DNA from: Deltaproteobacteria bacterium
Lineage (GTDB): Bacteria; Desulfobacterota; Dissulfuribacteria; Dissulfuribacterales; QOAL01
Length of the DNA stretch: 64,000 bases
Assembly: GCA_026995935.1 (NCBI GenBank)
Contig: JALWNK010000018.1
Location: forward strand, 1,245-65,244
Direction of reading: 5' to 3'
This document shows, piece after piece, positions 39,429 to 56,662 of the stretch. A program made the position numbers and the translations under genes. Each line of letters starts with the position of its first letter. The first letter of the stretch is position 1. The notes below the pieces were generated by a model. That model did not search any database, was not told where the DNA came from, and worked only from the letters and a program-made list of their open reading frames with translations.

Positions 39429-40874
39429 ATGAAAATCATCCCTGTTATACTTTCTGGAGGTTCAGGTTCAAGGCTTTGGCCACTTTCCCGCCATGCCTAT
39501 CCTAAACAGCTTCTTGCCTTAACAGGACCCGATACCCTAATACAGCAGACAGTCAAACGCGCTTCAGCTCTTTCTGACACTTCATCTCCGTTGCTTGTAT
39601 GCAACAACGAGCATCGTTTTTTGATTGCGGAACAGCTGCAGCAGATAGACGTAAAACCCCTAGATATAATCCTTGAGCCGGCAAAGCGTAACACTGCACC
39701 AGCAGTGGCTGCGGCCGCCCTTTATTGTAAAGAAAAGGAACCTGAAGCGGTAATGCTTGTTCTTCCTGCGGACCACCTCCTTGAAAACCAGGTGGAATTT
39801 CAAAAGGCGGTTGTTCAAGGCCTCTCCCTGGCCCAGGAAGGCAGTCTTGTTACCTTTGGAATAAGGCCGGCCTTTCCAGAAACTGGCTATGGGTACATAA
39901 AAAAGGGAGAAAGGCTTTCAGACAGGGCCTTCAAGGTGGAAAAATTTATTGAAAAACCAGATAAAAAACGTGCAGAAGAATATGTGGCCTCCTCTAAACA
40001 TCTTTGGAACTCTGGTATGTTTCTCTTTCGCCCTGTTGATTATCTTGAAGAACTTAAAAAGTTTGAACCTAAAATATATGAGAAATGCCTTGAGGCCTAT
40101 GAACACGCGATAAAAGACCTTGATTTCTTACGCCTTGAAAAAGACGCATTTGAGGCATGTCCTGCCAATTCAGTTGACTATGCGGTAATGGAAGGAACCG
40201 ATAAGGCAGCAGTTGTCAGCCTTGAAAGTGGCTGGAACGATATAGGTTCCTGGTCCTCGTTGTGGGAGGTTCTTCCCAAAAGACATAACTCCAATGTTGT
40301 GCGTGGAGACGTGGTTTTTGAAGACTCCTCTGACTGCCTGCTGTTTTCAGAAAGCAGATTGCTTGCAGCCCTGGGTGTAAAGGACCTTGTGGTGGTTGAG
40401 ACAAAGGATGCAGTGCTAGTTGCCCATAAGAGCAAAAGCCAGCAGGTCAAGAAAATAGTTAGGCACCTAAAGGAAAAGGGAAGGGAAGAGTTCCTCTTTC
40501 ATTCCAAGGTCTATCGTCCCTGGGGCTCTTACGAAGGCCTCGTATCAGGGGAGCGTTTCCAGGTAAAGCTCATCACGGTAAAACCAGGGGCAAGGCTCTC
40601 AGTGCAGATGCACCATCACAGGGCGGAGCACTGGATAATCGTAAAGGGCACCGCCAAGGTACGGCGGGGTGATGAAACCGTGCTCCTGACTGAAAACGAA
40701 TCCACCTTTATTCCCTTAGGTACGGTGCACAGCCTTGAGAATCCTGGTAAGATTCCCCTTGAGCTCATAGAGGTGCAAAGCGGTCCTTACCTCGGTGAGG
40801 ATGATATAGTCCGCTTTGAAGACATGTACGGCCGGGTGAAAAGCCGAGCCCACAAAGGGCATAACAAAAAGTAA
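39429..40874 (+). CDS. manC: mannose-1-phosphate guanylyltransferase / mannose-6-phosphate isomerase
   Basis: N-terminal ILSGGSGSRLWPLSR and C-terminal cupin block HHRAEHWIIVKGTA. Confidence 0.9.
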   Translation: MKIIPVILSGGSGSRLWPLSRHAYPKQLLALTGPDTLIQQTVKRASALSDTSSPLLVCNNEHRFLIAEQLQQIDVKPLDIILEPAKRNTAPAVAAAALYCKEKEPEAVMLVLPADHLLENQVEFQKAVVQGLSLAQEGSLVTFGIRPAFPETGYGYIKKGERLSDRAFKVEKFIEKPDKKRAEEYVASSKHLWNSGMFLFRPVDYLEELKKFEPKIYEKCLEAYEHAIKDLDFLRLEKDAFEACPANSVDYAVMEGTDKAAVVSLESGWNDIGSWSSLWEVLPKRHNSNVVRGDVVFEDSSDCLLFSESRLLAALGVKDLVVVETKDAVLVAHKSKSQQVKKIVRHLKEKGREEFLFHSKVYRPWGSYEGLVSGERFQVKLITVKPGARLSVQMHHHRAEHWIIVKGTAKVRRGDETVLLTENESTFIPLGTVHSLENPGKIPLELIEVQSGPYLGEDDIVRFEDMYGRVKSRAHKGHNKK

Positions 40875-40880
40875 AAAAAC

Positions 40881-41080
40881 AAAAGCTGAACCGCAAAGGC
40901 GCAAAGAACGCGAAGGTTTTTGATTCTTCCCTGTCGGGGTGAACCGACAGGGAAGGAACAGCTTCTTGATGTTAGGTTTTTAGGTTTTTCCTTGGCGTCC
41001 ATTGCGTCTTGAATCCGCTGAAAGCGGATGGGCGGTTTAAAAGCAAAAGCTGAAACGCCTGGGTGCTGAGGACGCGAAGG
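40881..41080 (-). repeat. H-X-Y modular repeat family 2, block a (only block in minus orientation)
   Basis: X module 40881-40915, hairpin TTCCCTGTCGG-GGTGAA-CCGACAGGGAA 40927-40954, Y module with hairpin ATCCGC-TGAAA-GCGGAT 40990-41042, and a degenerate X at 41045-41080. Confidence 0.85.
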
Positions 41081-41096
41081 TTAATTTCGGTAAGCA

Positions 41097-41894
41097 ATGA
41101 TAGATACATTCAGCATATATAATGACTTGAAAGACAGTTTTGGTGATGAACCTGCCAGAAAGATGACTCAGGTCATCAGGCAGATTTACGAAGAGCTCAG
41201 TCAATCGGTCAGGAAAGAGGATTTTAATGAGCTTAAAAGTGTTGTTAAGGAGCTTGTCGAGGCTCAGCGTGGTACAGAAAAGCGCCTTGATTCCCTGACT
41301 GTCAAAGTCGAAGAGCTTGCAGAGGCTCAAAAGCGCACCGAACTTAAGGTCGAAGAGTTAGCCGAGGCTCAGCGTGGTACAGAAAAGCGCCTTGATTCCC
41401 TGACTGTCAAAGTCGAAGAGCTTGCAGAGGCCCAAAAACAGACTGAGCTGGAAATCACTAAACTTTCAAAGGGGCTGCGCCAAACCAGACAGATGGTCGG
41501 CGGGCTTTCTGACAGCGTCGGTTATGGCCTTGAAGACAGGGCAATAGCAGTCATGCCCTCACTACTCAAAGAAAAATTCGGCATAGAATCAGACAATGGT
41601 TTTGTAAGAAAATACATAATTCTGGACGGACAAGAAGTTGAACTCAACATGTTCGGAACAGGTCATAAGGCCGATGAAAAATGGTTTGTAGTAGGTGAGG
41701 CTAAGGCGAAGCTGTCCCAAAAAGATGTGGATAAATTCTTAAGGCTGTTAAGCCGCCTCAGGACTTCCAAATTTGTGGAGGATCAGGTTTTTCCCATTAT
41801 AGTCACCTATTCCACCCGTCCAGCAACCCAGAGATACGCTGAAGAAAAGGGTATAAATATCATCTGGTCATATGAGCTGGAAAAATATAGATGA
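41097..41894 (+). CDS. coiled-coil protein (DUF3782-like repeats) with C-terminal PD-(D/E)XK nuclease-like domain
   Basis: 265 aa. Heptad-rich EELAEAQ repeats. The C-terminal block VELNMFG...WFVVGEAKAKL carries an E-x-K motif. I recall this family being annotated as chordopoxvirus-fusion-protein-like. Confidence 0.55.
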   Translation: MIDTFSIYNDLKDSFGDEPARKMTQVIRQIYEELSQSVRKEDFNELKSVVKELVEAQRGTEKRLDSLTVKVEELAEAQKRTELKVEELAEAQRGTEKRLDSLTVKVEELAEAQKQTELEITKLSKGLRQTRQMVGGLSDSVGYGLEDRAIAVMPSLLKEKFGIESDNGFVRKYIILDGQEVELNMFGTGHKADEKWFVVGEAKAKLSQKDVDKFLRLLSRLRTSKFVEDQVFPIIVTYSTRPATQRYAEEKGINIIWSYELEKYR

Positions 41895-41911
41895 TCCCAA
41901 AGGAGAGTATT

Positions 41912-42823
41912 ATGAGGTATGGGCTGAGGCTTGTATTTTTCTTTATTTTGTTGCCCTGTGTTGGATGTCAAAGCAATCAGCCAGTTCAAAAAAGTATTTA
42001 TGAGGTGAAGCCTGTGAAAAGCCTTGATCTATCAAAATTTCCCGATACTCCCCCATCGAATCCACTAAATCTACTGTTCATTCATCACTCTTGCGGCGGC
42101 CATTGGCTAGCCGACAAGGGGCCTTCTGCGGGAGACAATTGTATTTATGAAACCCATCCAAACGGGGGAGGTTTGCGAAGCCTTTTAGAAAAAAACAACT
42201 ACGTAGTCCATGAAGCATCTTACAATTCAATTATTGGTGATAAGACCGATATCCTCGACTGGCCTCCAAAATTTCAAAACCAGATGGACAGAATTCTCAG
42301 GACCAAAATGCAGGATGAACTGCTGCCTGAAGGTGAAAGAAACCAAATCATAATGTTCAAATCCTGCTATCCAAATAACAACTTTCCAAGCGATGAATCT
42401 GTAAAAAAGGCACAAGAAGCATACAAGAGCCTATTGCCCATTTTTGAAAAATATCCACACACCCTCTTTGTTGCCGTTACTGCACCGCCCCTGGTTCGCC
42501 CTTATGAAACCCAAAATTCCCTAAAGGCCTTTGTTAAAAAACTGCTTGGCAGATACAAAGATGTCCCTTCCATTGGCAGGCGTGCCCGCTATTTCAACAA
42601 CTGGCTGAAAGATGTAGAATCTGGGTGGCTGAGTGGGTATCCTTTAAAAAACGTGGTGGTCTTCGATTACTACGATATCCTTACTAAGAATGGAAAATCC
42701 AATTGGGCGGAATATCCAACCAAAGAAGGCCGCGACAGTCACCCAAGCAGTGAAGGCAATTCCGTGGCAGCCCAGGAATTTGTGCATTTCCTCAACCGGG
42801 CAGTCCACCGTGCAGGTATCTAA
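41912..42823 (+). CDS. hypothetical lipoprotein, possibly SGNH-hydrolase-like
   Basis: RBS AGGAG then MRYGLRLVFFFILLPCVGC (lipobox). Blocks LLFIHHSCGG, FKSCYPNN and RDSHPSSEGN resemble SGNH blocks I, III and V, but this is weak. ORF track start is 41891. Confidence 0.45.
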   Translation: MRYGLRLVFFFILLPCVGCQSNQPVQKSIYEVKPVKSLDLSKFPDTPPSNPLNLLFIHHSCGGHWLADKGPSAGDNCIYETHPNGGGLRSLLEKNNYVVHEASYNSIIGDKTDILDWPPKFQNQMDRILRTKMQDELLPEGERNQIIMFKSCYPNNNFPSDESVKKAQEAYKSLLPIFEKYPHTLFVAVTAPPLVRPYETQNSLKAFVKKLLGRYKDVPSIGRRARYFNNWLKDVESGWLSGYPLKNVVVFDYYDILTKNGKSNWAEYPTKEGRDSHPSSEGNSVAAQEFVHFLNRAVHRAGI

Positions 42824-42828
42824 CAATG

Positions 42829-42970
42829 TTAAACCGCCCGCTCCTCTTAAGACGCCAAGAACGCCAAGTAAGAACCAACGCCAAGCAAGCTGTTGATTCC
42901 CTGTCGGTTCACCCCGACAGGGAATAGAAAGATAAACTTCGCGTTCTTTGCGCCTTAGCGGTTCAATTTC
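42829..42970 (+). repeat. H-X-Y repeat family 2, block b
   Basis: Y-derived 42829-42895, hairpin 42896-42925 (CCCTGTCGG/CCGACAGGG), X 42937-42970. Starts 6 nt after the lipoprotein stop and ends 1 nt before the vapC stop. Confidence 0.85.
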
Positions 42971-42971
42971 T

Positions 42972-43391
42972 TTAATATAATGACGGGATGGATAGCTTTT
43001 TCAACGCGCTTTTGAATTTGCGATCGAATGTGGCAACCTTGGAACCCTTTCTTGCCTTACAGACTGAGGCTACGATAGCATCACCGTAATCTGGGATTTT
43101 TTCAGGCCAATATGCAAAAAGAATTTCTAAGTCTAATTCATGAACCACTTCAACTCCTGGCATCAAAATAAAATCTGTTATCATTTCTTTTATCACTGAT
43201 AGGCCCAGCCCATAAACATTTTCTAGTACATAGACAAATTCGGTGAGGACATTTTGCGGACATAATACCAGGATTTCCAGGTTTGCCACCTTCTCGAAGA
43301 GTTCGGCTATTCTGTTTTGCTGGTCTAGGTCTCTGTCTGTGACGAATGAAATGAGAGCGTTTGTGTCTATGACAACCTTGTGTCTTTTCAT
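42972..43391 (-). CDS. vapC: PIN-domain toxin (VapC family)
   Basis: 139 aa. N-terminal VVIDTNALISF acidic motif; overlaps the upstream antitoxin gene by 4 nt. Confidence 0.85.
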   Translation of the reverse strand: MKRHKVVIDTNALISFVTDRDLDQQNRIAELFEKVANLEILVLCPQNVLTEFVYVLENVYGLGLSVIKEMITDFILMPGVEVVHELDLEILFAYWPEKIPDYGDAIVASVCKARKGSKVATFDRKFKSALKKLSIPSLY

Positions 43392-43621
43392 TGGTGTTTC
43401 TCGGCCCTGATTTTTCTAGCTGATTTGATGTCAGTTTGGATATTCCCATGACCAACTTTCACAGTGTTCCTGAATCTAAGAAAATGTTTTCTTGTGGGTA
43501 TAACTATGATCTTGCCGTTTTCTATTTTCCACTCGATGGTATCCCTAACAGAAAGGTTCATGGCCTCTCTGATGGGTTTAGGAATGGTTGTCTGGTATTT
43601 AGACGTAATTAATGTACGCAT
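43388..43621 (-). CDS. AbrB/MazE/SpoVT-family antitoxin
   Basis: 77 aa. SpoVT-AbrB block SKYQTTIPKPIREAMNLSVRDTIEW. Confidence 0.8.
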   Translation of the reverse strand: MRTLITSKYQTTIPKPIREAMNLSVRDTIEWKIENGKIIVIPTRKHFLRFRNTVKVGHGNIQTDIKSARKIRAEKHQ

Positions 43622-43696
43622 TTTCCATCCTCCCGAACACAGAAATTCTTACAAAAAAAGCATAACGTAAGAAATAAAAGCCGTCAATTTTTTGTA

Positions 43697-43837
43697 TTAA
43701 ACCGCCCGCTTCACTGAAGCCGCAATGTACGCCAAGGAAAAACCAAGGCATGCAAGTGTTATTTACCCATCGGTTACCCCGATGGGTAAAAGAATTAACC
43801 CCTTTGCGTCCTTTGCGCCTTTGCGGTTCAATTTTTT
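43697..43837 (+). repeat. H-X-Y repeat family 2, block c
   Basis: Y-derived 43697-43760, hairpin variant ACCCATCGG-TTACC-CCGATGGGT 43762-43790, X 43801-43837. Confidence 0.85.
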
Positions 43838-43950
43838 CCTTCTTGACCGCTTCAACACGCCTATCATACGGGAATACACACTGGGTAGAGGAACATGCAT
43901 GCAAGATGGTCTTATGAGCTGGAGAAAGAAATAAAAACAGTAAATAACGT

Positions 43951-44487
43951 ATGAATTTTAAGGCAGTTGTCAGTGCAATTATACCATTTTTCCAGGCAGA
44001 GAATTGTCGTTTTGCTTTAGCCGGAGCTTTTGCTCTTCACGCCTATGGCCTTTCAAGGGCAACTGGTGATATAGACTTTTTGCTGGACTCGGCATGCAGG
44101 GAGAAAGTGGTTAGATTTCTTGAGGATTTAGGATATGAAACCATTTATAAATCCGAGGGATATTCTAATCATGTCCATAGCATTTCTTCAATGGGGCGAG
44201 TAGATTTTATTTATGTTGACGGAGAGACAGCCAAAAGCCTGTTTTCAGAAATGGGACCAAGTCTGAAAATTGACCAATGGAGCATACCGGTTCCTTCGGC
44301 GGAACACCTTATCGCATTAAAGGTATTTGCTATGAAAAGCGATCCTTCAAGAACATTTCAGGAGATGGCTGATATACAGTTTCTGATAAATTTACCCGAT
44401 ACTGACCGGAACAGGGTAAAACAATATTTCGAACAGTACGGTTTGTTGGAGCGCTACAATGAGATCCTTGACAAAAATATTGAATGA
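43951..44487 (+). CDS. nucleotidyltransferase-fold protein (DUF2204-like, tentative)
   Basis: 178 aa. Minimal NTase motif FALAGAFALHAYGLSRATGDIDFLL (G-x-x...D-x-D). Confidence 0.55.
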   Translation: MNFKAVVSAIIPFFQAENCRFALAGAFALHAYGLSRATGDIDFLLDSACREKVVRFLEDLGYETIYKSEGYSNHVHSISSMGRVDFIYVDGETAKSLFSEMGPSLKIDQWSIPVPSAEHLIALKVFAMKSDPSRTFQEMADIQFLINLPDTDRNRVKQYFEQYGLLERYNEILDKNIE

Positions 44488-44659
44488 TAAGGTGGAGCTG
44501 GATGTAAAATTAAGTGAGAAAGATATCCAGGCCTTGAGGATAAAGAATACCTCAATGAAAACCACTGATTACCTTGAATTCCTTAAATCTGTCAATTCTG
44601 TTGGAGTAAATGTTAAATGGCGCAAAGGTCCACGCGGGAAAAAATTTGAACTGCCCTGA
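44459..44659 (+). CDS. hypothetical small protein overlapping the 3' end of the NTase gene
   Basis: 66-aa ORF that overlaps the upstream gene by 29 nt. No recognisable family. Confidence 0.3.
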   Translation: MRSLTKILNDKVELDVKLSEKDIQALRIKNTSMKTTDYLEFLKSVNSVGVNVKWRKGPRGKKFELP

Positions 44660-44696
44660 GATATGATTTTTAAAGGTCAGCATCAACAGCCCAATT

Positions 44697-44958
44697 TCAC
44701 CTCCCGCTTCACTCAAGCCGCCAAGCAAGCTGTTCTTCCCTGTCGGTATACCCCGACAGGGAAGAATTAAAAATCTTCGCGTTCTTCGCGCCTTTGCGGT
44801 TCAGTTTTTGTTTTTTTAAACCGCCCATCCGCTTTCGGCGGATTCAAGACGCCAGGAACGCCAAGTAAGAACCAACGCCAGGCAAGTGTTAATTTCCCAT
44901 CGGTTACCCCGATGGGAAATAAGCCCGAAATCCTTAGCGCCCGTAGCGGTTCAACTTT
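44697..44958 (+). repeat. H-X-Y repeat family 2, block d (tandem dimer)
   Basis: Hairpins 44735-44764 (CTGTCGG type) and 44892-44920 (CATCGG type); X modules 44775-44809 and 44932-44958; Y with ATCCGC/GCGGAT hairpin at 44815-44890. Confidence 0.85.
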
Positions 44959-44962
44959 AATA

Positions 44963-45349
44963 ATGCATCAGATTGAAGACATTGGACGAGAAATAATACA
45001 TTCAGCTATCAAGGTTCATAAGGCGCTTGGTCCTGGGTTGCTTGAATCTGTATATCAGAGGTGCTTGGCCTATGAACTTGAAAAATCCGGCCTTTCAGTA
45101 AGATGTGAGTGTGCCATGCCCGTGCATTATGAGGGCATGGAGCTTGATATGGGCTTTCGTGCCGATATGGTTGTTGTTGACATGATTATTGTGGAAAATA
45201 AAACCGTTGACAAAATCCTGCCGATTCATGAAGCACAACTCCTGACTTATCTCAGATTGACCAATCTGAATCTCGGCTTTCTTTTAAACTGGAATGTCGT
45301 ATTGATGAAGGATGGTATAAGACGCATGGTCAACAGGTTAGATGAATAA
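44963..45349 (+). CDS. GxxExxY-family protein (PD-(D/E)XK fold)
   Basis: Block IIHSAIKVHKALGPGLLESVYQRCLAYELEKSGL...VENK. The ORF track start 44912 lies inside repeat block d, so ATG 44963 is preferred. Confidence 0.8.
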   Translation: MHQIEDIGREIIHSAIKVHKALGPGLLESVYQRCLAYELEKSGLSVRCECAMPVHYEGMELDMGFRADMVVVDMIIVENKTVDKILPIHEAQLLTYLRLTNLNLGFLLNWNVVLMKDGIRRMVNRLDE

Positions 45350-45366
45350 ACCGTGCCGCATGGTTT

Positions 45367-45442
45367 CTTCCCCGTCGGTATACCCCGACAGGGAAGAATC
45401 AAAAAATCTTCGCGTTCTTCGCGCCTTTGCGGTTCAGCTTTT
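45367..45442 (+). repeat. H-X-Y repeat family 2, block e
   Basis: Hairpin 45367-45396 and X 45408-45442. Confidence 0.85.
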
Positions 45443-45454
45443 AATAATGGCCTG

Positions 45455-45850
45455 TCACCAAATTGTTACGAGCCTTTCAACCTCATGCAATCTTTTGTCT
45501 GCTGTAATAAGAGGAGCACGATGGTGAATAGCTGTCGCAGCTATTATCCTGTCAGCAGGGTCTTTATGAGTGAAAAAATCTGCCTGAGAAAGAGCAGCTA
45601 TCTCTGGGGTTATAGGCAGGATCTTCAAATACAAGACCTTGATAAGGTCATTTAGATAAACGGGAATGGAAATATCGTTTCTTATGCGGCCACCTGCAGA
45701 CAGCATTGCTATTTCCCACAAAGAAATATCAGCACATGCAAGTTGTTTCTGGTCTATGGCTGTCTCAAGTGCATCGGCTGCCTTGGGACTAAGCCGTTCA
45801 GGGGCATCCTGCCAGAAAATGAGAACATGAGTATCACAAATTGTCAGCAT
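45455..45850 (-). CDS. vapC: PIN-domain toxin (VapC family)
   Basis: 131 aa. Blocks ICDTHVLIFW and DPADRIIAATAIHHRAPLITADKRL. Confidence 0.85.
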   Translation of the reverse strand: MLTICDTHVLIFWQDAPERLSPKAADALETAIDQKQLACADISLWEIAMLSAGGRIRNDISIPVYLNDLIKVLYLKILPITPEIAALSQADFFTHKDPADRIIAATAIHHRAPLITADKRLHEVERLVTIW

Positions 45851-46076
45851 CTGCTGTCCAATCGGTATTTTTAACCGGCTCGATTATGTCGCCCTTGATC
45901 ACGGTACCACGTAGTTTCATAAGCCTGTTGCGCGCCGCTTCCACTTCATCTTTTTCAGGTATGATCCTGGCTATGACTCTCCCACGGCTTGTAACTCGGA
46001 GTTCCGTTCCCAGTTCCACCTGTTTCAGATAATATGGCAGGCGCTTTCTCAGTTCGGTAACATTAATTTCAGGCAT
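45834..46076 (-). CDS. Phd/YefM-family antitoxin
   Basis: 80 aa. Block INVTELRKRLPYYLKQVELGTELRVTSRGRVIARIIP. Confidence 0.85.
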   Translation of the reverse strand: MPEINVTELRKRLPYYLKQVELGTELRVTSRGRVIARIIPEKDEVEAARNRLMKLRGTVIKGDIIEPVKNTDWTADADNL

Positions 46077-46150
46077 GTTGCGCTCCGCAAAACGTACACT
46101 TTATATGTACATTTTAAGAAGGGCGTCATTGTTGTCAAGATATAAGGTAT

Positions 46151-46226
46151 TTTTATCCATCGGTCGCCCCGATGGATAAAAGAATTGTCTCTTAGCGTTC
46201 TTCGCGCCTTTGCGGTTCAGCTTTTT
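46151..46226 (+). repeat. H-X-Y repeat family 2, block f
   Basis: Hairpin variant ATCCATCGG-TCGCC-CCGATGGAT 46151-46181 and X 46191-46226. Confidence 0.85.
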
Positions 46227-46259
46227 GTTTTTCACCGTCCACTGTACTTTTAGTTTGTT

Positions 46260-46580
46260 ATGGACGTTAAAATAAACTTAATACAAGAAGCTATTGTGCA
46301 AGGTGAATATCGTTTCACGCTCCATGCTCTTGAAAGGTGTATAGAACGAAATATATCTCCTAATGAAATCAAAGAGGCAATTCTGAATGGTGAAATTATC
46401 GAATATTATGCCCAGGATAAGTATGGGCCTAGTTGTCTTATTTGCGGTATTACGGATAAAGCCAGATTTTTACATGTGCTTTGTTCCTTGAAACCTGTAT
46501 GGGTAATTACAAGTTATGATCCAACTCTTAATTCGAAAGCATGGGATCACAATTACACGGTCAGGAGGAAGAAAAAATGA
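46260..46580 (+). CDS. DUF4258-domain protein (BrnT-like toxin candidate)
   Basis: 106 aa. Block YRFTLHALERCIERNISPNEIKEAILNGEIIE...LHVLCSLKPVWVITSYDP. Confidence 0.7.
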   Translation: MDVKINLIQEAIVQGEYRFTLHALERCIERNISPNEIKEAILNGEIIEYYAQDKYGPSCLICGITDKARFLHVLCSLKPVWVITSYDPTLNSKAWDHNYTVRRKKK

Positions 46581-46807
46581 AATGCCCGGCTTGCGGGGAG
46601 GTCCTGATTAAAAAAAAGGGTGAAATTGATCTGAGAATAAATGGGAAGCTTTATATGGTTAGAGAAGTAACATTTGAAATGTGCCCTGGATGCGGTGAAA
46701 GAGTGCTGTCCCCAGAGGTAAGTCAAAATATTTTTCAAAAAATCAAAGCCAGGAAATATAAAGAAGAAACGATCAAAATACCTGTTTTAAACGGAACCTA
46801 TGGTTAA
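46577..46807 (+). CDS. YgiT-type zinc-finger protein (MqsA-like antitoxin candidate)
   Basis: MKCPACGE...FEMCPGCGERVLSP has two CxxC pairs. ATGA overlap with the DUF4258 gene. The ORF track start 46541 is upstream and in-frame. Confidence 0.7.
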   Translation: MKCPACGEVLIKKKGEIDLRINGKLYMVREVTFEMCPGCGERVLSPEVSQNIFQKIKARKYKEETIKIPVLNGTYG

Positions 46808-47075
46808 TTCCCATCGGCCGCCCCGATGGGAAAAAGCCTGAAACCCTTAGCGCCCTTAGAGCCTCAGCTTTTGTTTTTTTAAACCGCCCGTCCGCTTTCA
46901 TCGGATTCAAGCCGCAATGTACGCGAAGGAAGAACCTAACGCCAAGCAAGCTGTTGATTTCCTGTCGGTACACCCCGACAGGGAAGAATTAAAAATCTTA
47001 GCGTTCTTAGCGCCTTTGCGGTTCAGCTCTTGTTTTTTAAACTTTGAGCTTTCAGCTTCCAGCTTCTCGCTTTAA
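46808..47075 (+). repeat. H-X-Y repeat family 2, block g (tandem dimer plus CAGCTTC-rich tail)
   Basis: Hairpins 46808-46832 (CATCGG type) and 46958-46985 (CTGTCGG type); X modules 46845-46872 and 46997-47030; Y 46877-46955. Begins 1 nt after the stop codon. Confidence 0.85.
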
Positions 47076-47178
47076 GCTATCCTAATACTATGCTAAAATT
47101 ACTCCAAGCAGAGCTGGCTGTACGCACCCACCAGACATGTTGTTCGGATTGAACATAAGACATTTCGCAGGATAACAA

Positions 47179-47385
47179 ATGAAGGAATTCAGTGTCATAA
47201 TAGAAAAAGATGAAGACGGGTATTATGTCGCTTGCGTGCCAGTGCTTCGCGGCTGTCATACTTAGGCGAAATCTTTAGATACTTTGCTAGAGAGGATTAA
47301 AGAGGCAATTGAACTTTGTCTTGAGGTAGAAGAGCCAATATCCACTGAGTTTATCGGCGTACAAAAAGTAGCAGTGAACGGATGA
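47179..47385 (+). pseudogene. hicB: HicB-family antitoxin with an in-frame TAG
   Basis: MKEFSVIIEKDEDGYYVACVPVLRGCHT*AKSLDTLLERIKEAIELCLE. TAG at 47263-47265 sits where HicB proteins normally have Gln (GCHTQ). Not in the ORF track because of the stop. Confidence 0.7.
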
Positions 47386-47513
47386 CAACGTTTCCGGCCG
47401 TAACGGGGCCTCGGCTTATTCTGGCACTGGGAAAATTAGGCTTTGAAGTGATACGTGTAAAGGGGAGCCATCACTTCTTGAAGCACCAAGACGGTCGTTG
47501 TACGGTAGTTCCC
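47382..47513 (+). pseudogene. hicA: HicA-family toxin, 3'-truncated by a repeat hairpin
   Basis: ATGA overlap with hicB. LGFEVIRVKGSHHFLKHQDGRCTVVP is HicA-like. Homology stops where hairpin 47509-47536 begins, and the remainder of ORF 47382-47810 is translated repeat. Confidence 0.7.
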
Positions 47514-47740
47514 TGTCGGTTAACCCCGACAGGGAATAGAAAAATAAACTTCGCGTTCTTCGCGCCTTTGCGGTTCAGCTTTTGTTTTTTTAAACCGCCC
47601 ATCCGCTTTCATCGGATTCAAGCCGCAATGTACGCGAAGGAAGAACCTAACGCCAAGCAAGCTGTTGATTTCCTGTCGGTACACCCCGACAGGAAAGAAT
47701 CGAAACCCTTAGCGTTCTTCGCGCCTTTGCGGTTCAGCTC
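47509..47740 (+). repeat. H-X-Y repeat family 2, block h (tandem dimer)
   Basis: Hairpins 47509-47536 and 47669-47696; X modules 47549-47584 and 47708-47740; Y 47588-47668. Confidence 0.85.
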
Positions 47741-47836
47741 TGACATACTTACTAAAAATAGTAAATCCAACTTGGAAGAATACAACCAGAGAAATTCGTA
47801 CTCTGTTTAAACAGGGCTGTTAATCAGGCAGGATTT

Positions 47837-48676
47837 GTGACATTTAAAACGACTAAGAAAGGCCCAATCTTGCCAACCTTCTTTTGGATCATGTGCGTGA
47901 TTGTATCCTTCATATATGCAACCTATCCTGCCTGGCACTCGCTGATTCGCGCATGGAGTAACTACGAAGCATATTCGCACGGTTTTTTGATTATTCCGCT
48001 CTGTTTATTTTTGGTTTTTCTCAAAAGGGAAGAGTTAAGAAACACACCGGTAAGAGGATCTAATTGGGGGCTAGTTTTAACAATTTTGTCATTATGTCTC
48101 TATCTTTTTGCCCATGTTGCCGAGATAGTGACTGTCAGATCATTTAGCTTAATACTAATTTTGGTCGGCGTCATATTGTATTTATTTGGGTTTCAAGTAA
48201 TAAAAGAATTGATATTTCCTTTTTCATTACTCCTCTTTATGGTGCCGATTCCATCGCAAATTTATTCTTATTTAACACTTCCCCTTCAGCTTTTTGTTTC
48301 AAAAACATCTGTATGGTTGGCCTCAGTGCTTGGGGTTCCTGTTTATAGTGAAGGCAATATTATTCATCTTCCTGACAAGACATTGCAGGTTGTAAGAGCA
48401 TGCAGTGGTATGAGATCCATAGTTTCTCTTTTGACGATAAGTGCTGTTTTAGGCTATTTAACGTTACACTCAAATATTCTTAGGTACGTATTATTTCTAT
48501 CAGGATTGCCCACTGCAATTATAGTAAATATTCTCAGAATATTGCTCATTTTAATTGCTATCTACTATTGGGGATTAGACTTAACTATAGACTGTTTTCA
48601 TATGATAACGGGTTTAGTTGTTTTCGGATCGGCTATTTTAATATTAATTTTAATTCGACAATGCTTATTAATTTAG
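47837..48676 (+). CDS. exosortase (copy 1)
   Basis: 279 aa polytopic protein. Exosortase signature residues YSHGFLI, P-x-P, VVRACSGMRS (Cys), NILRIL (Arg) and FHMITG (His). GTG start. Confidence 0.85.
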   Translation: MTFKTTKKGPILPTFFWIMCVIVSFIYATYPAWHSLIRAWSNYEAYSHGFLIIPLCLFLVFLKREELRNTPVRGSNWGLVLTILSLCLYLFAHVAEIVTVRSFSLILILVGVILYLFGFQVIKELIFPFSLLLFMVPIPSQIYSYLTLPLQLFVSKTSVWLASVLGVPVYSEGNIIHLPDKTLQVVRACSGMRSIVSLLTISAVLGYLTLHSNILRYVLFLSGLPTAIIVNILRILLILIAIYYWGLDLTIDCFHMITGLVVFGSAILILILIRQCLLI

Positions 48677-48695
48677 AGAAACATCAAATTACAAA

Positions 48696-49328
48696 TTGAT
48701 AATTTTGACGGTTTGTTTTTTACTTAGGGGTGTGGTTGTTAATGGAATAAAACCAGAATGTAAGATATTATACAAAAATAAAAAATTCAAGCAGGTCCTT
48801 GCCAAAATTCCGGGTTGGAGCGTAGTAAGTTTTGATCCTCTTGATAAGAGGATAATAAAGACCTTGAAACTTGACGACCATATCAATGTTACATACACTG
48901 ACGGAAAAGACAATGTTTCCCTATATATTGGATATTATTTTTCAAACAAGAAAATAGGTGCTGCTCATGATCCCATGGTTTGTTTTCCTGGCCAGGGTTG
49001 GACAGTTCTAGGAAACGAGAAAGGAAAAATTGAAGTTGACCACTCAAACTCTTCCGCTGTCAAATATTCCAGCATGATAGTGAGTAAGGGAGGCCGGAGA
49101 GAGCTTGTCATTTATTGGATCCAATCTTACGATTGTTCTAGTTCAGACACGTTTTCGCAGAAGTTTCATGCATTTTTGAATAATTTTTCCAGTCACGCCC
49201 ATGGTAACGCTTTTGTGAGAGTGACTGTAAACCTAAAAAATACATCCCTTGATCAGGCCCAAAAGGTTTGTGAAAAATTCATAAAGGCCTTTTATCCTGT
49301 TTTTTTGACGTATATTTATAGAAGTTAA
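48696..49328 (+). CDS. EpsI-family exosortase-associated protein (copy 1)
   Basis: 210 aa. Motif AAHDPMVCFPGQGW is typical of EpsI. Lies immediately downstream of the exosortase. TTG start. Confidence 0.8.
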   Translation: MIILTVCFLLRGVVVNGIKPECKILYKNKKFKQVLAKIPGWSVVSFDPLDKRIIKTLKLDDHINVTYTDGKDNVSLYIGYYFSNKKIGAAHDPMVCFPGQGWTVLGNEKGKIEVDHSNSSAVKYSSMIVSKGGRRELVIYWIQSYDCSSSDTFSQKFHAFLNNFSSHAHGNAFVRVTVNLKNTSLDQAQKVCEKFIKAFYPVFLTYIYRS

Positions 49329-49337: not shown

Positions 49338-50570
49338 ATGGCAGTAATCATTTTCTGGACTTCGATCTTATTCATTTTTTATATCTATGCAGGCTATCCT
49401 CTGACAGTGTTTATACTTTCAAGATTTCTTAATAGATGTGTTAGAAAGTCAGCTATTTGTCCATCAGTAAGCATTCTAATTGCAGCATACAATGAAGAAG
49501 ATAATATAGAAGCTACTATCAGAAACAAGCTGCATCTTGACTATCCTGTAGATAAAATCGAGATTATTGTAATTTCAGATGGGTCAACAGATGGGACCGA
49601 CGACATCGTCAAGCAGTTTGATTCCAGTAAGGTACGGTTGTTGCGTCAAGAGCCGCGGGCTGGGAAAACTTCAGCACTTAACATGGCAGTTCCCAAGGCA
49701 AAGGGCGAAATCCTGGTCTTTTCCGATGCCAACTCAATTTATGCAAAGGACGCTCTCCATCATTTGGTTAGTAACTTTGCTGATTCCACTGTGGGCTATG
49801 TCACGGGCAAGATGATATATGTAAACCCTGATGGTTCTCCCATTGGTGATGGCTGCTCCGCGTATATGAAATACGAGAATTTTTTGCGAGAAGCCGAGAC
49901 AAGGGTAGGCTCTATAGTGGGAGTTGACGGGGGAATTGACGCGGTGAGAAAAGAGCTTTACAGGCCCATGAACCCGGACCAACTGCCTGATTTCGTGTTA
50001 CCTTTGATGGTTGTTGATCAGGGCTACAGGGTTGTCTACGAACCTGCTGCGATCCTCAAGGAACCGGCACTCAAAGCGCCCAGGGATGAATACAGAATGC
50101 GCGTCCGCGTCTCTCTCCGAGCCCTCTGGGCCCTATGGGACATGCGCCACCTCCTCATCGCCAGGCGCTCCCAGCATTCCCACGTTCATCCCTTCACACG
50201 CTCTCACGTTCCCAATTCCGCCGCCTCCCAGCCTCCCAGCTTCCTAGCTTCCCAGCCTCCTAGCCTTTACGCTTACCAACTCTGGTCTCACAAGGTTCTC
50301 CGCTATCTTGCTTTTGTCTTTTTGATAGCTGCATATATATCAAACATGATGCTCTGGCATGCCTCTTGGGGATACAAGGCTTTGTTTGTCATACAAAATA
50401 TATTTTACTTGGCTGCACTCGCTGCACCAGTCCTCGAAAAATACGGTTTCAAATCTAGGGTTCTCTATTTGACAAATTACTTTACTTTGCTAAACGCTGC
50501 ATCAGCCCATGCCTCCATCAAATTCCTCCTCCGCCAAAAAATGATCACTTGGACACCGAGGAAGGGATGA
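49338..50570 (+). CDS. family 2 glycosyltransferase with C-terminal TM region and an unusual in-frame low-complexity insert
   Basis: GT2 blocks VSILIAAYNEE, VISDGSTDGT and SDANS. Insert RRSQHSHVHPFTRSHVPNSAASQPPSFLASQPPS is encoded at about 50160-50266. Confidence 0.85.
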   Translation: MAVIIFWTSILFIFYIYAGYPLTVFILSRFLNRCVRKSAICPSVSILIAAYNEEDNIEATIRNKLHLDYPVDKIEIIVISDGSTDGTDDIVKQFDSSKVRLLRQEPRAGKTSALNMAVPKAKGEILVFSDANSIYAKDALHHLVSNFADSTVGYVTGKMIYVNPDGSPIGDGCSAYMKYENFLREAETRVGSIVGVDGGIDAVRKELYRPMNPDQLPDFVLPLMVVDQGYRVVYEPAAILKEPALKAPRDEYRMRVRVSLRALWALWDMRHLLIARRSQHSHVHPFTRSHVPNSAASQPPSFLASQPPSLYAYQLWSHKVLRYLAFVFLIAAYISNMMLWHASWGYKALFVIQNIFYLAALAAPVLEKYGFKSRVLYLTNYFTLLNAASAHASIKFLLRQKMITWTPRKG

Positions 50571-50700
50571 CGCAGTATCGGGGTCATTGAGTTTATTGGG
50601 TTTGTGGAATGAGGGTAGAAAATGTGGGACAATAATTGAAAAAAATTCAACCTTAAGGATATTCAAAGGGGCCTACAGACCCCTGCTTGGGAGGAAAGAC

Positions 50701-50931
50701 ATGAAATTTTCGAGGATTACAGTTAATCCCGAACAGATGGACGGTGTACCTTGTATTCGAGGGCTAAGAATTCCCGTTGCCACAGTGGTAGGGATGGTCT
50801 CAGACGGAATAAGCAACGAGGAGATTCTTAAGGCCTATCCTGACTTGGAACCTGAAGATATACGGGAGGCATTAAAATATGATGCTGAAGCTGTAAGGGA
50901 GCGTGAACTGCCGTTGTTAAAGGCCGTATGA
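50701..50931 (+). CDS. DUF433-domain protein (antitoxin-like)
   Basis: Block MDGVPCIRGLRIPVATVVGMVSDGISNEEILKAYPDLEPEDIREAL. ATG 50701 is preferred over the ORF track start 50587. Confidence 0.75.
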   Translation: MKFSRITVNPEQMDGVPCIRGLRIPVATVVGMVSDGISNEEILKAYPDLEPEDIREALKYDAEAVRERELPLLKAV

Positions 50932-51041
50932 AGTTCTTGGTGGACAACGCCCTATCACCAATGTACGCACCAGATCTCTTTTTTCCCCTTTCGCGCCTTA
51001 ACCTTTTCTCGCACCCAGCGATTAAACAGACCAGATAGACC
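50928..51041 (+). pseudogene. remnant of a DUF5615 (PIN-like) partner of DUF433
   Basis: ATGA overlap with the DUF433 gene. MKFLVDNALSP matches the usual DUF5615 N-terminus, then homology is lost and the frame stops after 37 codons. Confidence 0.45.
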
Positions 51042-51134
51042 AAACAAACCTAATCCATTGGACACCGCCTAGATAATGAGCTAACATGAACTAAACAGAT
51101 TTACCAGCCAGGATGTCTCAGGGGGTGTAGTAAT

Positions 51135-51323
51135 ATGGGGAACATAGTTATTCGAAAGGATGAGGATATTCTCAAGGCAAGGGATAAGATTCAGTATGGT
51201 TTAAAAAGGGTAAAGGCACTCGATGCCCGGTTGTATCTTGGGAAACTGAGAATAAAAGACGATGCCTTAGCCTACCAGAAGGAGCTTAGGAAAGAGTGGG
51301 ATACTGATGAGCATGCTCATTGA
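51135..51323 (+). CDS. putative antitoxin of the downstream PIN toxin
   Basis: 62-aa ORF that overlaps the PIN gene by 17 nt. No family recognised. Confidence 0.4.
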   Translation: MGNIVIRKDEDILKARDKIQYGLKRVKALDARLYLGKLRIKDDALAYQKELRKEWDTDEHAH

Positions 51324-51906: not shown

Positions 51907-51930
51907 CACAGTGAAGTCGGGAATCTATGA

Positions 51931-55519: not shown

Positions 55520-56662
<1,143 letters not shown>

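What the first reader, a model, noticed from the sequence alone, without database searches (positions are those of the whole stretch)
40881..47740. Modular H-X-Y repeat family (11 hairpins in 7 kb) with two compensatory stem classes and uniform orientation, interleaved with toxin-antitoxin cassettes
**Structure.** Eight blocks (a-h, see features) are built from three modules.
- H is a 9-12-bp-stem hairpin.
- X is about 35 nt, CTTCGCGTTCTTCGCGCCTTTGCGGTTCAGCTTTT.
- Y is about 75 nt and starts TTAAACCGCCCATCCGCTTTCAGCGGATTCAAG, with its own ATCCGC/GCGGAT hairpin.

**Covariation.** H occurs in two versions that differ by paired changes on both arms: CCCTGTCGG...CCGACAGGG and CCCATCGG...CCGATGGG. 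One further variant is ATCCATCGG...CCGATGGAT. So the structure is conserved rather than the sequence.

**Placement.** Blocks b-h are all on the plus strand even though the intervening genes are on both strands. Several blocks start or end within 1-6 nt of stop codons (42829, 42970, 46808). One block replaces the 3' end of hicA. Each gene or gene pair between blocks is a small self-contained module (VapBC, NTase pair, GxxExxY, Phd-VapC, DUF4258-zinc finger, HicBA).

**Interpretation.** The layout resembles a cassette array or a REP/BIME or MITE swarm. I see no integrase, RAYT or transposase in the window that could mobilise it, and I do not recognise the sequence as a described element.
Basis: seen in the sequence. 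Interest (0 to 1): 0.75.

Follow-up and report, generated by a model that had tools for sequence, protein, structure and literature searches.

The report
Palindromic repeats bounding small gene cassettes
A 6.9-kb islet of toxin-antitoxin and other small genes sits inside a polysaccharide locus. Each gene module is followed by a structured palindromic repeat whose arm recurs in more than a dozen taxonomic groups and elsewhere brackets an uncharacterised nuclease-fold (GxxExxY) gene. The layout resembles an integron cassette array, but no integrase was found.

Summary
Eleven co-structured repeat units plus one remnant lie in 40881-47742 and nowhere else in the 64 kb (covariance model E 1e-20 to 1e-30). 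Ten are on the + strand. Each of seven small gene modules is followed by one or two units.

The units are better phased as Y-H-X, an imperfect palindrome of 140-150 nt. The H stem shows compensatory changes (98% of cells paired; 4 of 11 pairs change on both sides).

This is not a lineage-specific REP. The X arm (..CTTTGCGCCTTTGCGGTTCA) occurs in at least 120 loci from many phyla. There it forms solitary palindromes, MITE-like copies with 5-bp target duplications (Sulfuricella), and brackets around GxxExxY PD-(D/E)XK genes in at least seven lineages. Co-oriented arrays interleaved with TA genes inside polysaccharide loci recur in related genomes.

A sister lineage, confirmed by an independent assembly, carries cassettes C-E at 98% identity in a different exosortase locus. 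Its breakpoints fall inside or just after X.

No integron integrase was found in the window or in about 1.2 Mb of related loci. The canonical attC R'/L' signature is not met.

Best reading: these are mobile, recombinogenic palindromes that act as portable cassette boundaries. The GxxExxY nuclease is the candidate enzyme, but that part is inference. I found no description of the repeat family.

The parts
40881..41042 (-). Unit u1: full Y-H-X palindrome in inverted orientation. Its X tail abuts the manC stop at 40874.
   Evidence: 98.8 bits
41045..41098 (-). u1b: degenerate X-only remnant next to u1
   Evidence: D13; 27.2 bits
41097..42823 (+). Module A: DUF8196-like coiled-coil protein (41097-41894) plus a lipoprotein with weak GDSL-like similarity (41891-42823)
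42829..42971 (+). Unit u2: full Y'-H1-X. It starts 5 nt after the module A stop and ends 1 nt before the vapC stop.
   Evidence: z -7.2 / -7.5
42972..43687 (-). Module B: VapC (PIN; 42972-43391), MazE/AbrB-type antitoxin (43388-43621) and its own sigma70-like promoter (43687 to 43659)
43697..43836 (+). Unit u3: full Y'-H2-X
43951..44659 (+). Module C: AbiEii-type nucleotidyltransferase (43951-44487) plus a 66-aa ORF (44459-44659)
44694..44809 (+). Unit u4: degenerate Y, then H1-X
44816..44958 (+). Unit u5: full Y-H2-X' with a shortened X. It forms a doublet with u4. Its X end lies 9 nt before the GxxExxY ATG.
44963..45349 (+). Module D: GxxExxY / PDDEXK_3 protein (TIGR04256). The D68 and E78-x-K80 signature is invariant in the alignment. 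It is the candidate trans-acting nuclease.
45347..45442 (+). Unit u6: short Y (TAAACCGTGCCGC, overlapping the gene's TAA stop), then H1-X
45455..46138 (-). Module E: VapC (PIN; 45455-45850), Phd/YefM antitoxin (45834-46076) and its own promoter TTGACA-16-TAAAAT (46138 to 46111)
46151..46225 (+). Unit u7: H-X with the H variant ATCCATCGG. It has at most a degenerate left arm.
46260..46807 (+). Module F: DUF4258 protein (46260-46580) plus an MqsA-like zinc-ribbon protein (46577-46807)
46806..46873 (+). Unit u8: H2-X' with a degenerate, shortened X and no Y. It directly abuts the module F stop codon.
46879..47031 (+). Unit u9: full Y-H1-X, forming a doublet with u8
   Evidence: (D3)
47179..47510 (+). 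Module G: decayed HicBA. hicB has an in-frame TAG (about 47263-47265). hicA (47382 onward) is truncated at H of u10.
47509..47583 (+). Unit u10: H1-X replacing the 3' end of hicA
47590..47742 (+). Unit u11: full Y-H1-X, the last unit, about 95 nt upstream of the exosortase gene (47837)

Best explanation
The region is an islet of seven small accessory gene modules inserted between manC and an exosortase gene of a polysaccharide locus. Five modules are TA or abortive-infection-type pairs, one is a GxxExxY PD-(D/E)XK gene, and one is a DUF8196/lipoprotein pair. Every module is followed by one or two copies of a mosaic palindromic repeat.

Each repeat runs: outer AAACCGCC box, mini-hairpin, Y arm, H hairpin, then an X arm ending in GCGGTTCA.

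The repeat belongs to a family of hairpin/cruciform-forming elements found in many phyla, for which I found no published description. Elsewhere the family behaves as mobile DNA and brackets GxxExxY genes.

Proposed mechanism: the units are non-autonomous, recombinogenic palindromes that serve as portable cassette boundaries. Whatever lies between two units can be gained, lost or exchanged by recombination within or next to the units. I propose that this is started by a nuclease that recognises the arm and hairpin. The GxxExxY protein encoded in the array is the prime candidate. No integron integrase is needed in this model.

Shown here:
- the anatomy and folding of the units;
- confinement to the array;
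- compensatory variation in H within this window, and replacement of the hairpin sequences between lineages;
- the cross-phylum arm;
- target-site duplications elsewhere;
- the GxxExxY association;
- a cassette-level polymorphism with breakpoints at X.

Inferred:
- that recombination at the units, rather than later insertion of units, built the array;
- that GxxExxY is the enzyme.
For: 1. One or two units follow each of the 7 modules. Ten of 11 units are co-oriented, with margins of 0-75 nt to the genes.
2. Full units fold far better than shuffled sequence on both strands, z -2.9 to -7.5.
3. The same architecture recurs with entirely different hairpin sequences in L088, L137, L140/141, L142, L143 and L145. 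H covaries within the window.
4. The 19-mer core has at least 120 exact hits in the genome collection, against about 17 expected by my own estimate. The hits span many phyla and are mostly palindromes of 67-230 nt. The core also occurs on 6 viral contigs.
5. All six Sulfuricella-type copies that have the outer inverted repeat carry matching 5-bp flanking duplications.
6. All seven GxxExxY genes found in the repeat-selected loci lie 14-104 nt from an arm. In L084, L046, L014 and L044 the order is left arm, gene, right arm.
7. In six contexts chosen through the protein, the gene is bracketed by same-strand X arms. The upstream arm ends 9-26 nt before the ATG and the downstream arm ends 49-102 nt after the stop. 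L140 is the one upstream exception.
8. L126 and the independent assembly L136 carry cassettes C-E at 98% identity, with proteins differing by 2-5 residues, in a different EpsI-exosortase locus. They lack modules F and G. All junctions lie in or just after X.
9. The catalytic D...ExK signature of GxxExxY is invariant in the alignment.
10. No IntI-like gene was found in the window or in the roughly 1.2 Mb of related loci searched (and the Pfam context tables).
Against: - No activity is known for any GxxExxY protein. The structure model is only moderate (pLDDT 73.8), and the fold search gave no significant match.
- The association could mean the gene is a frequent passenger rather than the engine.
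- The window's units show no target-site duplications, so transposition of these particular copies is not shown.
- Ordinary RecA recombination between repeats could produce the observed polymorphism.
- Other small modules in the same locus (DUF433, PIN and 23S_rRNA_IVP at 50.6-52.4 kb) lack these units.
- The rest of the MAG could not be searched for intI or a RAYT.
- The protein-selected contexts are all 70-96% identical homologues, probably from related taxa.
Confidence: 0.45

Rival explanations
1. It is a true integron cassette array without a nearby integrase (a CALIN). The Y-H-X units would be long, VCR-like attC sites that fold as single strands and are recombined by an IntI encoded elsewhere in the genome.
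For: - The organisation is cassette-like, with uniform orientation.
- The ORFs are mostly co-oriented with the units.
- The reversed TA cassettes carry their own promoters.
- The AAC / GTT triplets sit at the two ends of an imperfect palindrome, with the extra bases on the R'' arm.
- If + is the top strand, the bottom strand lies on the leading-strand template, as reported for sedentary chromosomal integrons.
- CALINs are common, and half of them are in genomes without intI.
Against: - R' is GTTCAGC or GTTCAAT. In a published taxon attC model the fourth base is A with p of about 0.93 and C with p of about 0.01. No canonical L' box or unpaired central spacer is present.
- The stems carry mismatches rather than extrahelical bases.
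- Three units lack the R'' arm altogether.
- Tandem X-only arrays with a 65-75 nt period occur in L137.
- Solitary copies lie next to housekeeping genes in many phyla, and some have 5-bp TSDs.
- The two mapped breakpoints lie about 8 nt before and about 9 nt after the GTT, not at G|TT.
- No IntI was found in the window or in any related locus.
Confidence: 0.15
2. It is a swarm of classical MITEs, mobilised in trans by a DDE transposase. The copies inserted after the fact into the A/T-rich spacers between accessory genes that were already there. The cassette-like look would then be a by-product of where insertions are tolerated.
For: - Sulfuricella-type copies have outer inverted repeats (CCTRGAAAA...) and 5-bp TSDs. 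From memory, this resembles the IS1380 family.
- Nested and flipped modules and tandem copies occur.
- The family is depleted in divergent-promoter spacers: 9 of 82 classified elements.
Against: - The window units have no TSDs and no outer inverted repeat.
- The hicA junction is a replacement, not a clean insertion.
- The units are confined to one islet, while about 55 other intergenic spacers in the window have none. Only this array and its variant were found in the metagenome collection.
- No transposase recurs near the copies.
- A simple MITE model does not explain the GxxExxY bracketing or the shared cassette block in two loci.
Confidence: 0.15
3. They are REP/BIME-type extragenic palindromes. 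A RAYT-type HUH (Y1) transposase would act on the H hairpin in single-stranded DNA.
For: - The hairpin has a conserved structure and a variable sequence.
- There are no TSDs, the organisation is a BIME-like mosaic, and the orientation is uniform relative to replication.
- A RAYT-like gene sits in one comparable cluster, L140.
Against: - No conserved GTAG-type tetranucleotide precedes the hairpins.
- The part conserved across phyla is X, not the hairpin.
- The copies are clustered, not dispersed.
- The L140 RAYT is flanked by its own, unrelated REPs (GTGGCCCGACCCC).
- Known REPs are specific to a lineage (established knowledge).
Confidence: 0.12
4. They are host-maintained structural elements that act in RNA or DNA, for example as transcriptional insulators, RNase III processing sites or mRNA 3' stabilisers. 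They would separate selfish modules from the polysaccharide operon, and they would not be mobile now.
For: - The units sit at the 3' ends of co-oriented genes.
- The long imperfect stems resemble 23S rRNA intervening sequences, which RNase III excises and which can carry an ORF (Coxiella IVS paper PMC4990558, abstract listed).
- The X arm is A-poor and C/U-rich on the sense strand (seen directly in the sequence).
Against: - H lacks a T tract. Only 2 of the 4 terminator-like sites in the region fall in units, and 4 sites is below the shuffled expectation of 8.6.
- The orientation of the units is independent of the two reversed modules.
- TSDs, tandem amplification and the two-locus polymorphism point to DNA-level dynamics.
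- This reading is not exclusive of the best explanation.
Confidence: 0.08

Closest known systems
Integron attC sites and CALINs (clusters of attC sites lacking an integron integrase)
   Same: - Arrays of small, mostly promoterless modules, each followed by an imperfect palindrome of conserved structure and variable sequence.
- Uniform orientation.
- TA cassettes reversed, with their own promoters.
- AAC / GTT at the outer stem.
- Strain-level differences in cassette content.
   Different: - R' is GTTCAGC rather than GTTRRRY.
- No canonical L boxes, unpaired central spacer or extrahelical bases.
- Many units lack the left arm.
- Tandem X-only runs occur.
- The same arm occurs as solitary, transposed palindromes in many phyla.
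- The breakpoints are not at G|TT.
- No IntI was found.
REP / BIME / REPIN elements with RAYT transposases
   Same: Extragenic palindromes built as mosaics, in tandem and nested arrangements, without target duplications in this genome, close to stop codons.
   Different: - Clustered in one islet instead of dispersed.
- No GTAG-type motif.
- The conserved part is shared across phyla, whereas REPs are lineage-specific.
- The only RAYT seen nearby (L140) has different REPs.
MITEs (for example Correia or ERIC-type, and Tn3- or IS1380-derived miniature elements)
   Same: Short, non-coding palindromic elements. In Sulfuricella-type genomes the core lies inside an element of about 165 nt with terminal inverted repeats and 5-bp A/T-rich TSDs.
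   Different: - The window copies lack TSDs and the outer repeats.
- An identical internal core under different outer ends in different phyla is not typical of one MITE family.
- The copies bracket a nuclease-fold gene rather than a DDE transposase gene.
23S rRNA intervening sequences that carry an ORF (S23p / four-helix-bundle; Coxiella, Leptospira)
   Same: A small ORF lies inside a long inverted-repeat stem. The same enigmatic multi-copy families (PF05635) occur in these clusters, and in the window at 51986-52375 with its own 36-nt inverted repeat.
   Different: - These units are not in rRNA.
- The arm sequence is unrelated to the inverted repeat that flanks the window's own PF05635 gene.
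- The units mostly lie between genes rather than around them.
Homing endonuclease genes of the PD-(D/E)XK fold (for example I-Ssp6803I)
   Same: A small nuclease-fold ORF sits at the centre of a conserved target-like sequence. Spread by break-induced copying would leave no TSD and would use flanking homology.
   Different: No cleavage activity or target has been shown for GxxExxY. The proposed target would be a repeated palindrome, not a conserved host gene.

Membership tests
Integron cassette array / attC (CALIN) | R'' (RYYYAAC) and R' (GTTRRRY) boxes at the ends of an imperfect palindrome | tested here: inconclusive
   The AAC and GTT triplets are present in the full units (TTAAAC...GTTCAGC). 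The fourth base of R' is C, which has p of about 0.01 in a published taxon attC model. Units u7, u8 and u10 have no R'' arm.
Integron cassette array / attC (CALIN) | L''/L' boxes, an unpaired central spacer and extrahelical bases in the folded bottom strand | tested here: not met
   The folds show a continuous outer stem, then a 10-30 nt bulge or mini-hairpin on one arm, and regularly spaced 1x1 mismatches. No ..TTAAC-N5-6-GTT signature is present.
Integron cassette array / attC (CALIN) | At least two sites within 4 kb, all in the same orientation, each following a cassette ORF | tested here: met
   Ten + strand units are spaced 0.15-1.0 kb apart, one or two after each module.
Integron cassette array / attC (CALIN) | An IntI tyrosine recombinase (with its IntI-specific insertion) in the element or the genome | tested here: not met
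   tblastn with IntI1 (sequence written from memory) finds nothing in the window or in 124 loci at E < 1. No Phage_integrase family appears in the context tables. The rest of the MAG could not be searched.
Integron cassette array / attC (CALIN) | Detection by the IntegronFinder or HattCI attC models | not testable with these tools
   The models cannot be run here. Only part of the Ghaly et al. model file could be read.
Integron cassette array / attC (CALIN) | Recombination junctions precisely at G|TT of R' | tested here: not met
   Compared with the window, homology in L126/L136 starts 8 nt before the GTT at the left junction. At the right junction it ends 9 nt after the GTT. This rests on two junctions only.
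REP/BIME with RAYT | An imperfect palindrome of 20-40 nt with a conserved 5' tetranucleotide (GTAG-type) | tested here: not met
   The sequences before H vary (TGTTGA, GTTCT, GGTTTC, GTTAAT). GTAG occurs only at u10, and there it is hicA coding sequence.
REP/BIME with RAYT | Many copies dispersed through the extragenic space of the genome | tested here: not met
   There are no copies in the other 57 kb of the window. The H1-X pattern occurs on only 4 metagenome contigs, all of them this array or its variant. The whole genome was not available.
REP/BIME with RAYT | A cognate RAYT gene flanked by inverted copies of the repeat | tested here: not met
   No Y1_Tnp is present in the window. The RAYT-like gene in L140 is flanked by unrelated repeats.
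MITE | Terminal inverted repeats plus target-site duplications | tested here: not met
   The window blocks have no consistent flanking duplication. For Sulfuricella-type copies of the same core the feature is met, in 6 of 6 elements with a 5-bp TSD.
MITE | A related autonomous element that encodes a transposase with the same ends | tested here: not met
   No protein family recurs in the 8-kb flanks. The IS3 fragment is unrelated. The only ORF repeatedly bracketed by the arms is GxxExxY.
23S rRNA intervening sequence | Insertion in helix 25 or 45 of 23S rRNA, and excision by RNase III | tested here: not met
   The window contains no Rfam rRNA. The units lie between protein-coding genes.
GxxExxY (TIGR04256 / PF13366) protein family, for module D | A profile match above the curated cut-off, with the PD-(D/E)XK catalytic signature | tested here: met
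   TIGR04256 scores 141.6 bits against a cut-off of 35. PF13366 has E 1.6e-40. D68, E78 and K80 are invariant in 59 sequences.

The most novel reading that the evidence does not exclude
The conserved palindromic arms and the GxxExxY PD-(D/E)XK protein together form a gene-cassette or homing system that works without an integrase and is spread across more than ten phyla. The nuclease would cut the folded or extruded palindrome. Repair from a donor array would then copy whatever lies between two units. This would explain both the cassette-like TA islets in polysaccharide loci and the long-unexplained multi-copy, horizontally scattered GxxExxY family. By analogy, it might also explain the four-helix-bundle 'IVS protein' family.
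Probability: 0.2. Interest if true: 0.85.

Novelty: new variant of a known kind. Interest (0 to 1): 0.62.

Why it matters
- **An alternative route to cassette arrays.** Repeat-bounded arrays of TA and defence-type genes are usually attributed to integrons. Here the same layout is built from a different structured repeat with no integrase found. This suggests a second route to cassette arrays. It also warns against calling a CALIN from layout alone.
- **A testable hypothesis for an orphan protein family.** The repeat's arm is conserved at the nucleotide level across many phyla and is tightly linked to GxxExxY proteins. This family has thousands of members and no known function. The link gives a concrete hypothesis: a nuclease acting on a defined hairpin or cruciform substrate.
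- **A practical point for metagenomics.** These units fragment assemblies, because most homologues sit on contigs shorter than 3 kb. They also generate spurious ORFs.

Tried and rejected
- **Rfam.** Searches at gathering thresholds and at permissive E-values gave only chance XIST A-repeat hits.
- **Literature.** Searches for the sequence strings and for MITE/IS1380 or integron-like descriptions found nothing relevant.
- **IntI.** A tblastn probe found nothing in the window or the genome loci. The one hit, on a viral contig, looks like an ordinary phage integrase.
- **hicA as a clean insertion.** Rejected, because the 3' end of hicA is absent downstream.
- **IS3-family terminal repeat (TGAACCGCCCC-like).** Rejected. 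The window's IS3 fragment has no such ends, and IS3 genes do not recur near the copies.
- **Bottom-strand-specific folding, as in attC.** The minus strand is 2.6-4.8 kcal/mol more stable, but its shuffles are too, so the z-scores are equal. The effect is compositional.
- **Target-site duplications around the window's blocks.** None were found.
- **The L140 RAYT as mobiliser.** It has its own, unrelated REPs.
- **L126 as an assembly chimera.** Rejected. Its proteins differ by 2-5 residues from the window's, and an independent ENA assembly has the same arrangement.
- **Structure.** The AlphaFold model (pLDDT 73.8) and a Foldseek search of the PDB gave no significant match. The best hit was a Cas4 nuclease at E 0.59. 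There is no PDB sequence match.
- **Exact-sequence look-ups of the window's AbiEii and VapC.** These returned only the same array.
- **Gene-orientation context of solitary copies.** It shows only a mild depletion in divergent spacers.

Full report
**1. Checking the observation**

There are eleven H hairpins with 9-14 bp stems. Each is followed about 12 nt later by an X module that ends in GCGGTTCA. Seven units also have a Y module upstream.

A covariance model of the H-X unit was searched over all 64 kb with filters off. It returns the eleven units at 67-99 bits (E 1e-20 to 1e-30). These match by construction. It also returns one X-only remnant at 41045-41098. Nothing else scores below E of about 0.1, so the family is confined to this 6.9 kb.

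Ten units are on the + strand. Block a is inverted.

The H stems are 98.3% paired. Four of 11 pairs change on both sides, in 14 cells, and no slid register reaches this. These changes represent only two or three independent lineages.

The placements next to stop codons hold (42823/42829, 42971/42972, 46807/46808). So does the truncation of hicA: the HicA profile match ends at position 38 of 58, at the first base of H in u10. The missing part is not found downstream.

**2. Re-phasing the unit**

TTAAACCGC at the start of Y is complementary to GCGGTT at the end of X. The second half of Y (..GACGCCAAGAACGCCAAG..) is complementary to X (CTTCGCGTTCTTCGCG..).

The natural unit is therefore Y-H-X, an imperfect palindrome of 136-150 nt with H at its tip and a mini-hairpin bulging from the Y arm. 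Five full units fold with z-scores of -2.9 to -7.5 on both strands.

The minus strand is 2.6-4.8 kcal/mol more stable, but its shuffles are too. That asymmetry is compositional (G·T pairs), not strand-specific.

Three units (u7, u8, u10) are H-X only.

**3. Genes and context**

Seven modules lie between the units:

- A: a DUF8196-like protein plus a lipoprotein.
- B: VapBC on the minus strand.
- C: an AbiEii nucleotidyltransferase plus a 66-aa ORF.
- D: a GxxExxY / PDDEXK_3 protein (TIGR04256, 141.6 bits).
- E: Phd-VapC on the minus strand.
- F: DUF4258 plus an MqsA-like zinc ribbon.
- G: a decayed HicBA pair, with an in-frame TAG in hicB and a truncated hicA.

Both minus-strand TA modules have their own sigma70-like promoters inside the module. 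H is not a canonical intrinsic terminator.

The islet lies between manC (39429-40874) and an exosortase/EpsI pair (47837-49328) in a polysaccharide locus.

dnaA is at 1569-2894 and GC skew is positive throughout. So + is the leading strand, and the minus strand is the leading-strand template.

No tyrosine recombinase, Y1 transposase or intact transposase is present in the window. There is only an IS3-family fragment at 56324-56662.

**4. The arm is not local**

By my own estimate from the collection size, about 17 hits would be expected by chance.

The hits come from Beta- and Gammaproteobacteria (Sulfuricella and many Chromatiaceae), Desulfobacterota, Chloroflexota, Planctomycetota, Verrucomicrobiota, Acidobacteriota, Bacteroidota, Spirochaetota, Cyanobacteria and others. 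Some singletons may be chance matches.

About half of the arms have an inverted partner within 260 nt. These form palindromes of 67-230 nt: (T)GAACCGCAAAGGCGCAAAG ... CTTTGCGCCTTTGCGGTTCA. Their flanks are unrelated and their neighbours are housekeeping genes.

Several genomes carry many dispersed copies. The core also occurs on six viral contigs, one of which holds at least nine copies.

Rfam has no matching family. The sequence strings occur in no paper of the library.

**5. Evidence of mobility elsewhere**

In Sulfuricella-type genomes the core palindrome lies inside an element of about 165 nt with outer inverted repeats CCTRGAAAA...TTTTYAGG. All six such elements have matching flanking pentamers, four at 5/5 and two at 4/5. 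Those copies were transposed.

Naked cores without the outer repeat also occur in the same genus.

The window's own blocks show no target duplications.

**6. The link to GxxExxY genes**

Homologues of module D (40-70% identical) occur in seven of the repeat-selected loci, from seven lineages. All lie 14-104 nt from an arm.

In Sulfuricella L084 the arrangement is ribF stop, left arm, 13 nt, GxxExxY ORF, 4 nt, right arm, ileS start. Thiocapsa L046, Verrucomicrobiales L014 and Planctomycetia L044 have the same order. In L033, L040 and L088 the gene sits between complete units, as in the window.

For a reciprocal test, the protein search found at least 7,987 homologues at E <= 1e-10, mostly on contigs shorter than 3 kb. 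I looked up the contexts of six of them, chosen without reference to the repeat.

In these contexts the gene is bracketed by same-strand X arms. The upstream arm ends 9-26 nt before the ATG, and the downstream arm ends 49-102 nt after the stop. L140 is the one upstream exception.

All these contexts are polysaccharide loci (Poly_export, Wzz, Bac_transf). They are crowded with TA pairs, 23S_rRNA_IVP proteins, AAA_14 ATPases and similar genes. Their units are co-oriented: 6 of 6 in L142, 10 of 10 in L143, and 4 of 4 in L145 and L146.

The architecture of AACCGCC box, mini-hairpin, Y arm, H hairpin and X arm is kept, while both hairpins have quite different sequences. Only the apical (A/G)TCG(G)-loop-(C)CGA(T/C) of H is shared. 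Twenty-six of 64 X units have a hairpin of at least 9 bp within 70 nt upstream, against about 5 pairs in shuffles.

In L088, H is flipped relative to X in one unit, and another hairpin is nested inside X in two units. The units are therefore mosaics of nested palindromic modules.

The literature lists PDDEXK_3 as function unknown, with multiple transfers between divisions. There is no PDB sequence match.

The alignment shows an invariant G-x-x-E-x-x-Y motif and invariant D68 and E78-x-K80. The structure model is moderate, and its fold search was uninformative.

**7. A cassette-level polymorphism**

The metagenome scan for the window-specific H1-X subtype found only four contigs.

- Two of them (L125, L127) are the same array at 98.6-99.7% identity.
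- One (L128) is a relative, 91% identical, with u1 in the same place after manC.
- One (L126) carries cassettes C, D and E at 98% identity but in a different context.

In L126, an unrelated 238 nt lies to the left of CTTTGCGGTTCAATTTTTT. The X of u7 is joined directly to a u11-like Y-H-X, so modules F and G and units u8-u10 are absent. After GCGGTTCAGCTCT comes a different EpsI-exosortase-wecB locus, only 30-47% identical in protein to the window's two exosortase loci.

L126's proteins differ from the window's by 2-5 residues. An independent ENA assembly, L136, has the same arrangement at 98.8% identity. So this is a real alternative context and not a chimera.

All junctions lie in or just after X. 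They fall at different offsets from the GTT, about 8 nt before and about 9 nt after. This fits homology-driven or imprecise events within the units better than a fixed crossover point.

**8. Comparison with attC**

The cassette-like features are genuine. The orientation relative to replication matches what Loot et al. report for sedentary chromosomal integrons.

However, a published taxon attC model ends in ..GCTTAAC-N6-GTTAGGC, with G, T, T, A and G nearly invariant. The window units have GTTCAGC or GTTCAAT, no L' box and no unpaired central spacer. They have mismatches rather than extrahelical bases, and three units lack the left arm.

Several further findings do not fit an integron. These are the solitary and transposed copies elsewhere, the tandem X-only runs (nine at a 65-75 nt period in L137), and the absence of IntI in the window and in about 1.2 Mb of related loci. 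Membership is therefore not established, although the array may work in a similar way.

**9. Other rivals**

- **REP/RAYT.** This is disfavoured by the clustering, the lack of a GTAG-type motif and the cross-phylum conservation of X rather than of the hairpin. The one RAYT-like gene seen (L140) has unrelated REPs.
- **Simple MITE swarm.** This fits the Sulfuricella copies. It does not fit the window, which has no TSDs, a replacement at hicA and confinement to one islet. It also does not explain the GxxExxY bracketing.
- **RNA-level insulator or processing role.** This remains possible and is not exclusive of the best explanation.

**10. Conclusion**

The finding is real and more interesting than a local repeat. 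It is a cassette-like islet bounded by members of a palindromic element family that spans many phyla, and I found no description of that family.

The best-supported mechanism is that the units are mobile, recombinogenic palindromes that serve as portable cassette boundaries. The co-resident GxxExxY nuclease-fold protein is the candidate enzyme.

The descriptive parts are well supported. The enzymatic part is inference and needs the experiments listed under the decisive next steps.

Noticed in passing
window 1569-2894: A dnaA gene (DnaA_N, Bac_DnaA and Bac_DnaA_C domains), together with positive GC skew over the whole window. The window probably starts near the replication origin, with + as the leading strand.
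   Followed up: partly
window 41250-41449; L003 3084-3418: The DUF8196-like gene contains a 105-nt tandem coiled-coil repeat, with 2 copies at 91% identity. A sibling metagenome scaffold, otherwise 100% identical, has an extra copy and a shorter called ORF.
   Followed up: partly
window 50410-50576 and 51746-51912: A 167-nt direct repeat (85% identical). The first copy is the 3' end of the glycosyltransferase gene (49338-50570). The repeat brackets a DUF433 gene plus an antitoxin/PIN pair (50587-51672). This looks like a separate islet, inserted with a duplicated gene end and without H-X-Y units.
   Followed up: no
window 51912-51947 / 52453-52488, flanking 51986-52375: The four-helix-bundle '23S rRNA intervening sequence protein' gene (PF05635, TIGR02436) is flanked by its own 36-nt inverted repeat (75% complementary), of a sequence unrelated to X. 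It is another small ORF inside a stem.
   Followed up: no
window 56324-56662: A fragment of an IS3-family transposase (rve_3 / rve_2 domains, 112 aa), between acetyltransferase genes of the polysaccharide locus.
   Followed up: partly
window 47837-49328 and 53884-55517: Two exosortase (EpsH) / EpsI pairs lie within 7 kb. The sister array (L126/L136) sits next to a third, distantly related pair.
   Followed up: partly
window 47179-47385: hicB has an in-frame TAG where homologues would be expected to have a sense codon, and hicA is truncated. The HicBA cassette is decaying.
   Followed up: yes
L057 6140-6660: An Anaerolineaceae MAG carries six head-to-tail copies of an 85-nt core palindrome, separated by GATTTT spacers. 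This is a BIME-2-like tandem amplification.
   Followed up: no
L140 8003-9113: A 280-aa RAYT-like Y1 transposase (NF047646, 66.8 bits, below the cut-off) is flanked by inverted GTGGCCCGACCCC repeats. It lies in the same kind of polysaccharide-locus cluster.
   Followed up: partly
L143 2101-3438: A group II intron reverse transcriptase (RVT_1 + GIIM) lies inside another Wza/Wzz locus that also holds 10 co-oriented X units. These loci seem to collect many kinds of selfish elements.
   Followed up: no
L152 (IMG/VR contig, 23.6 kb): At least nine core arms lie on one contig classified as viral. L151 carries a complete Y-H-X-type unit and a phage-type integrase fragment.
   Followed up: no
window 44912-45349, 47382-47810 and others: The repeats create spurious or over-extended ORFs. 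Examples are the 145-aa call for the 128-aa GxxExxY gene, and a 142-aa 'HicA' that reads through two units. Public annotations carry these calls.
   Followed up: partly
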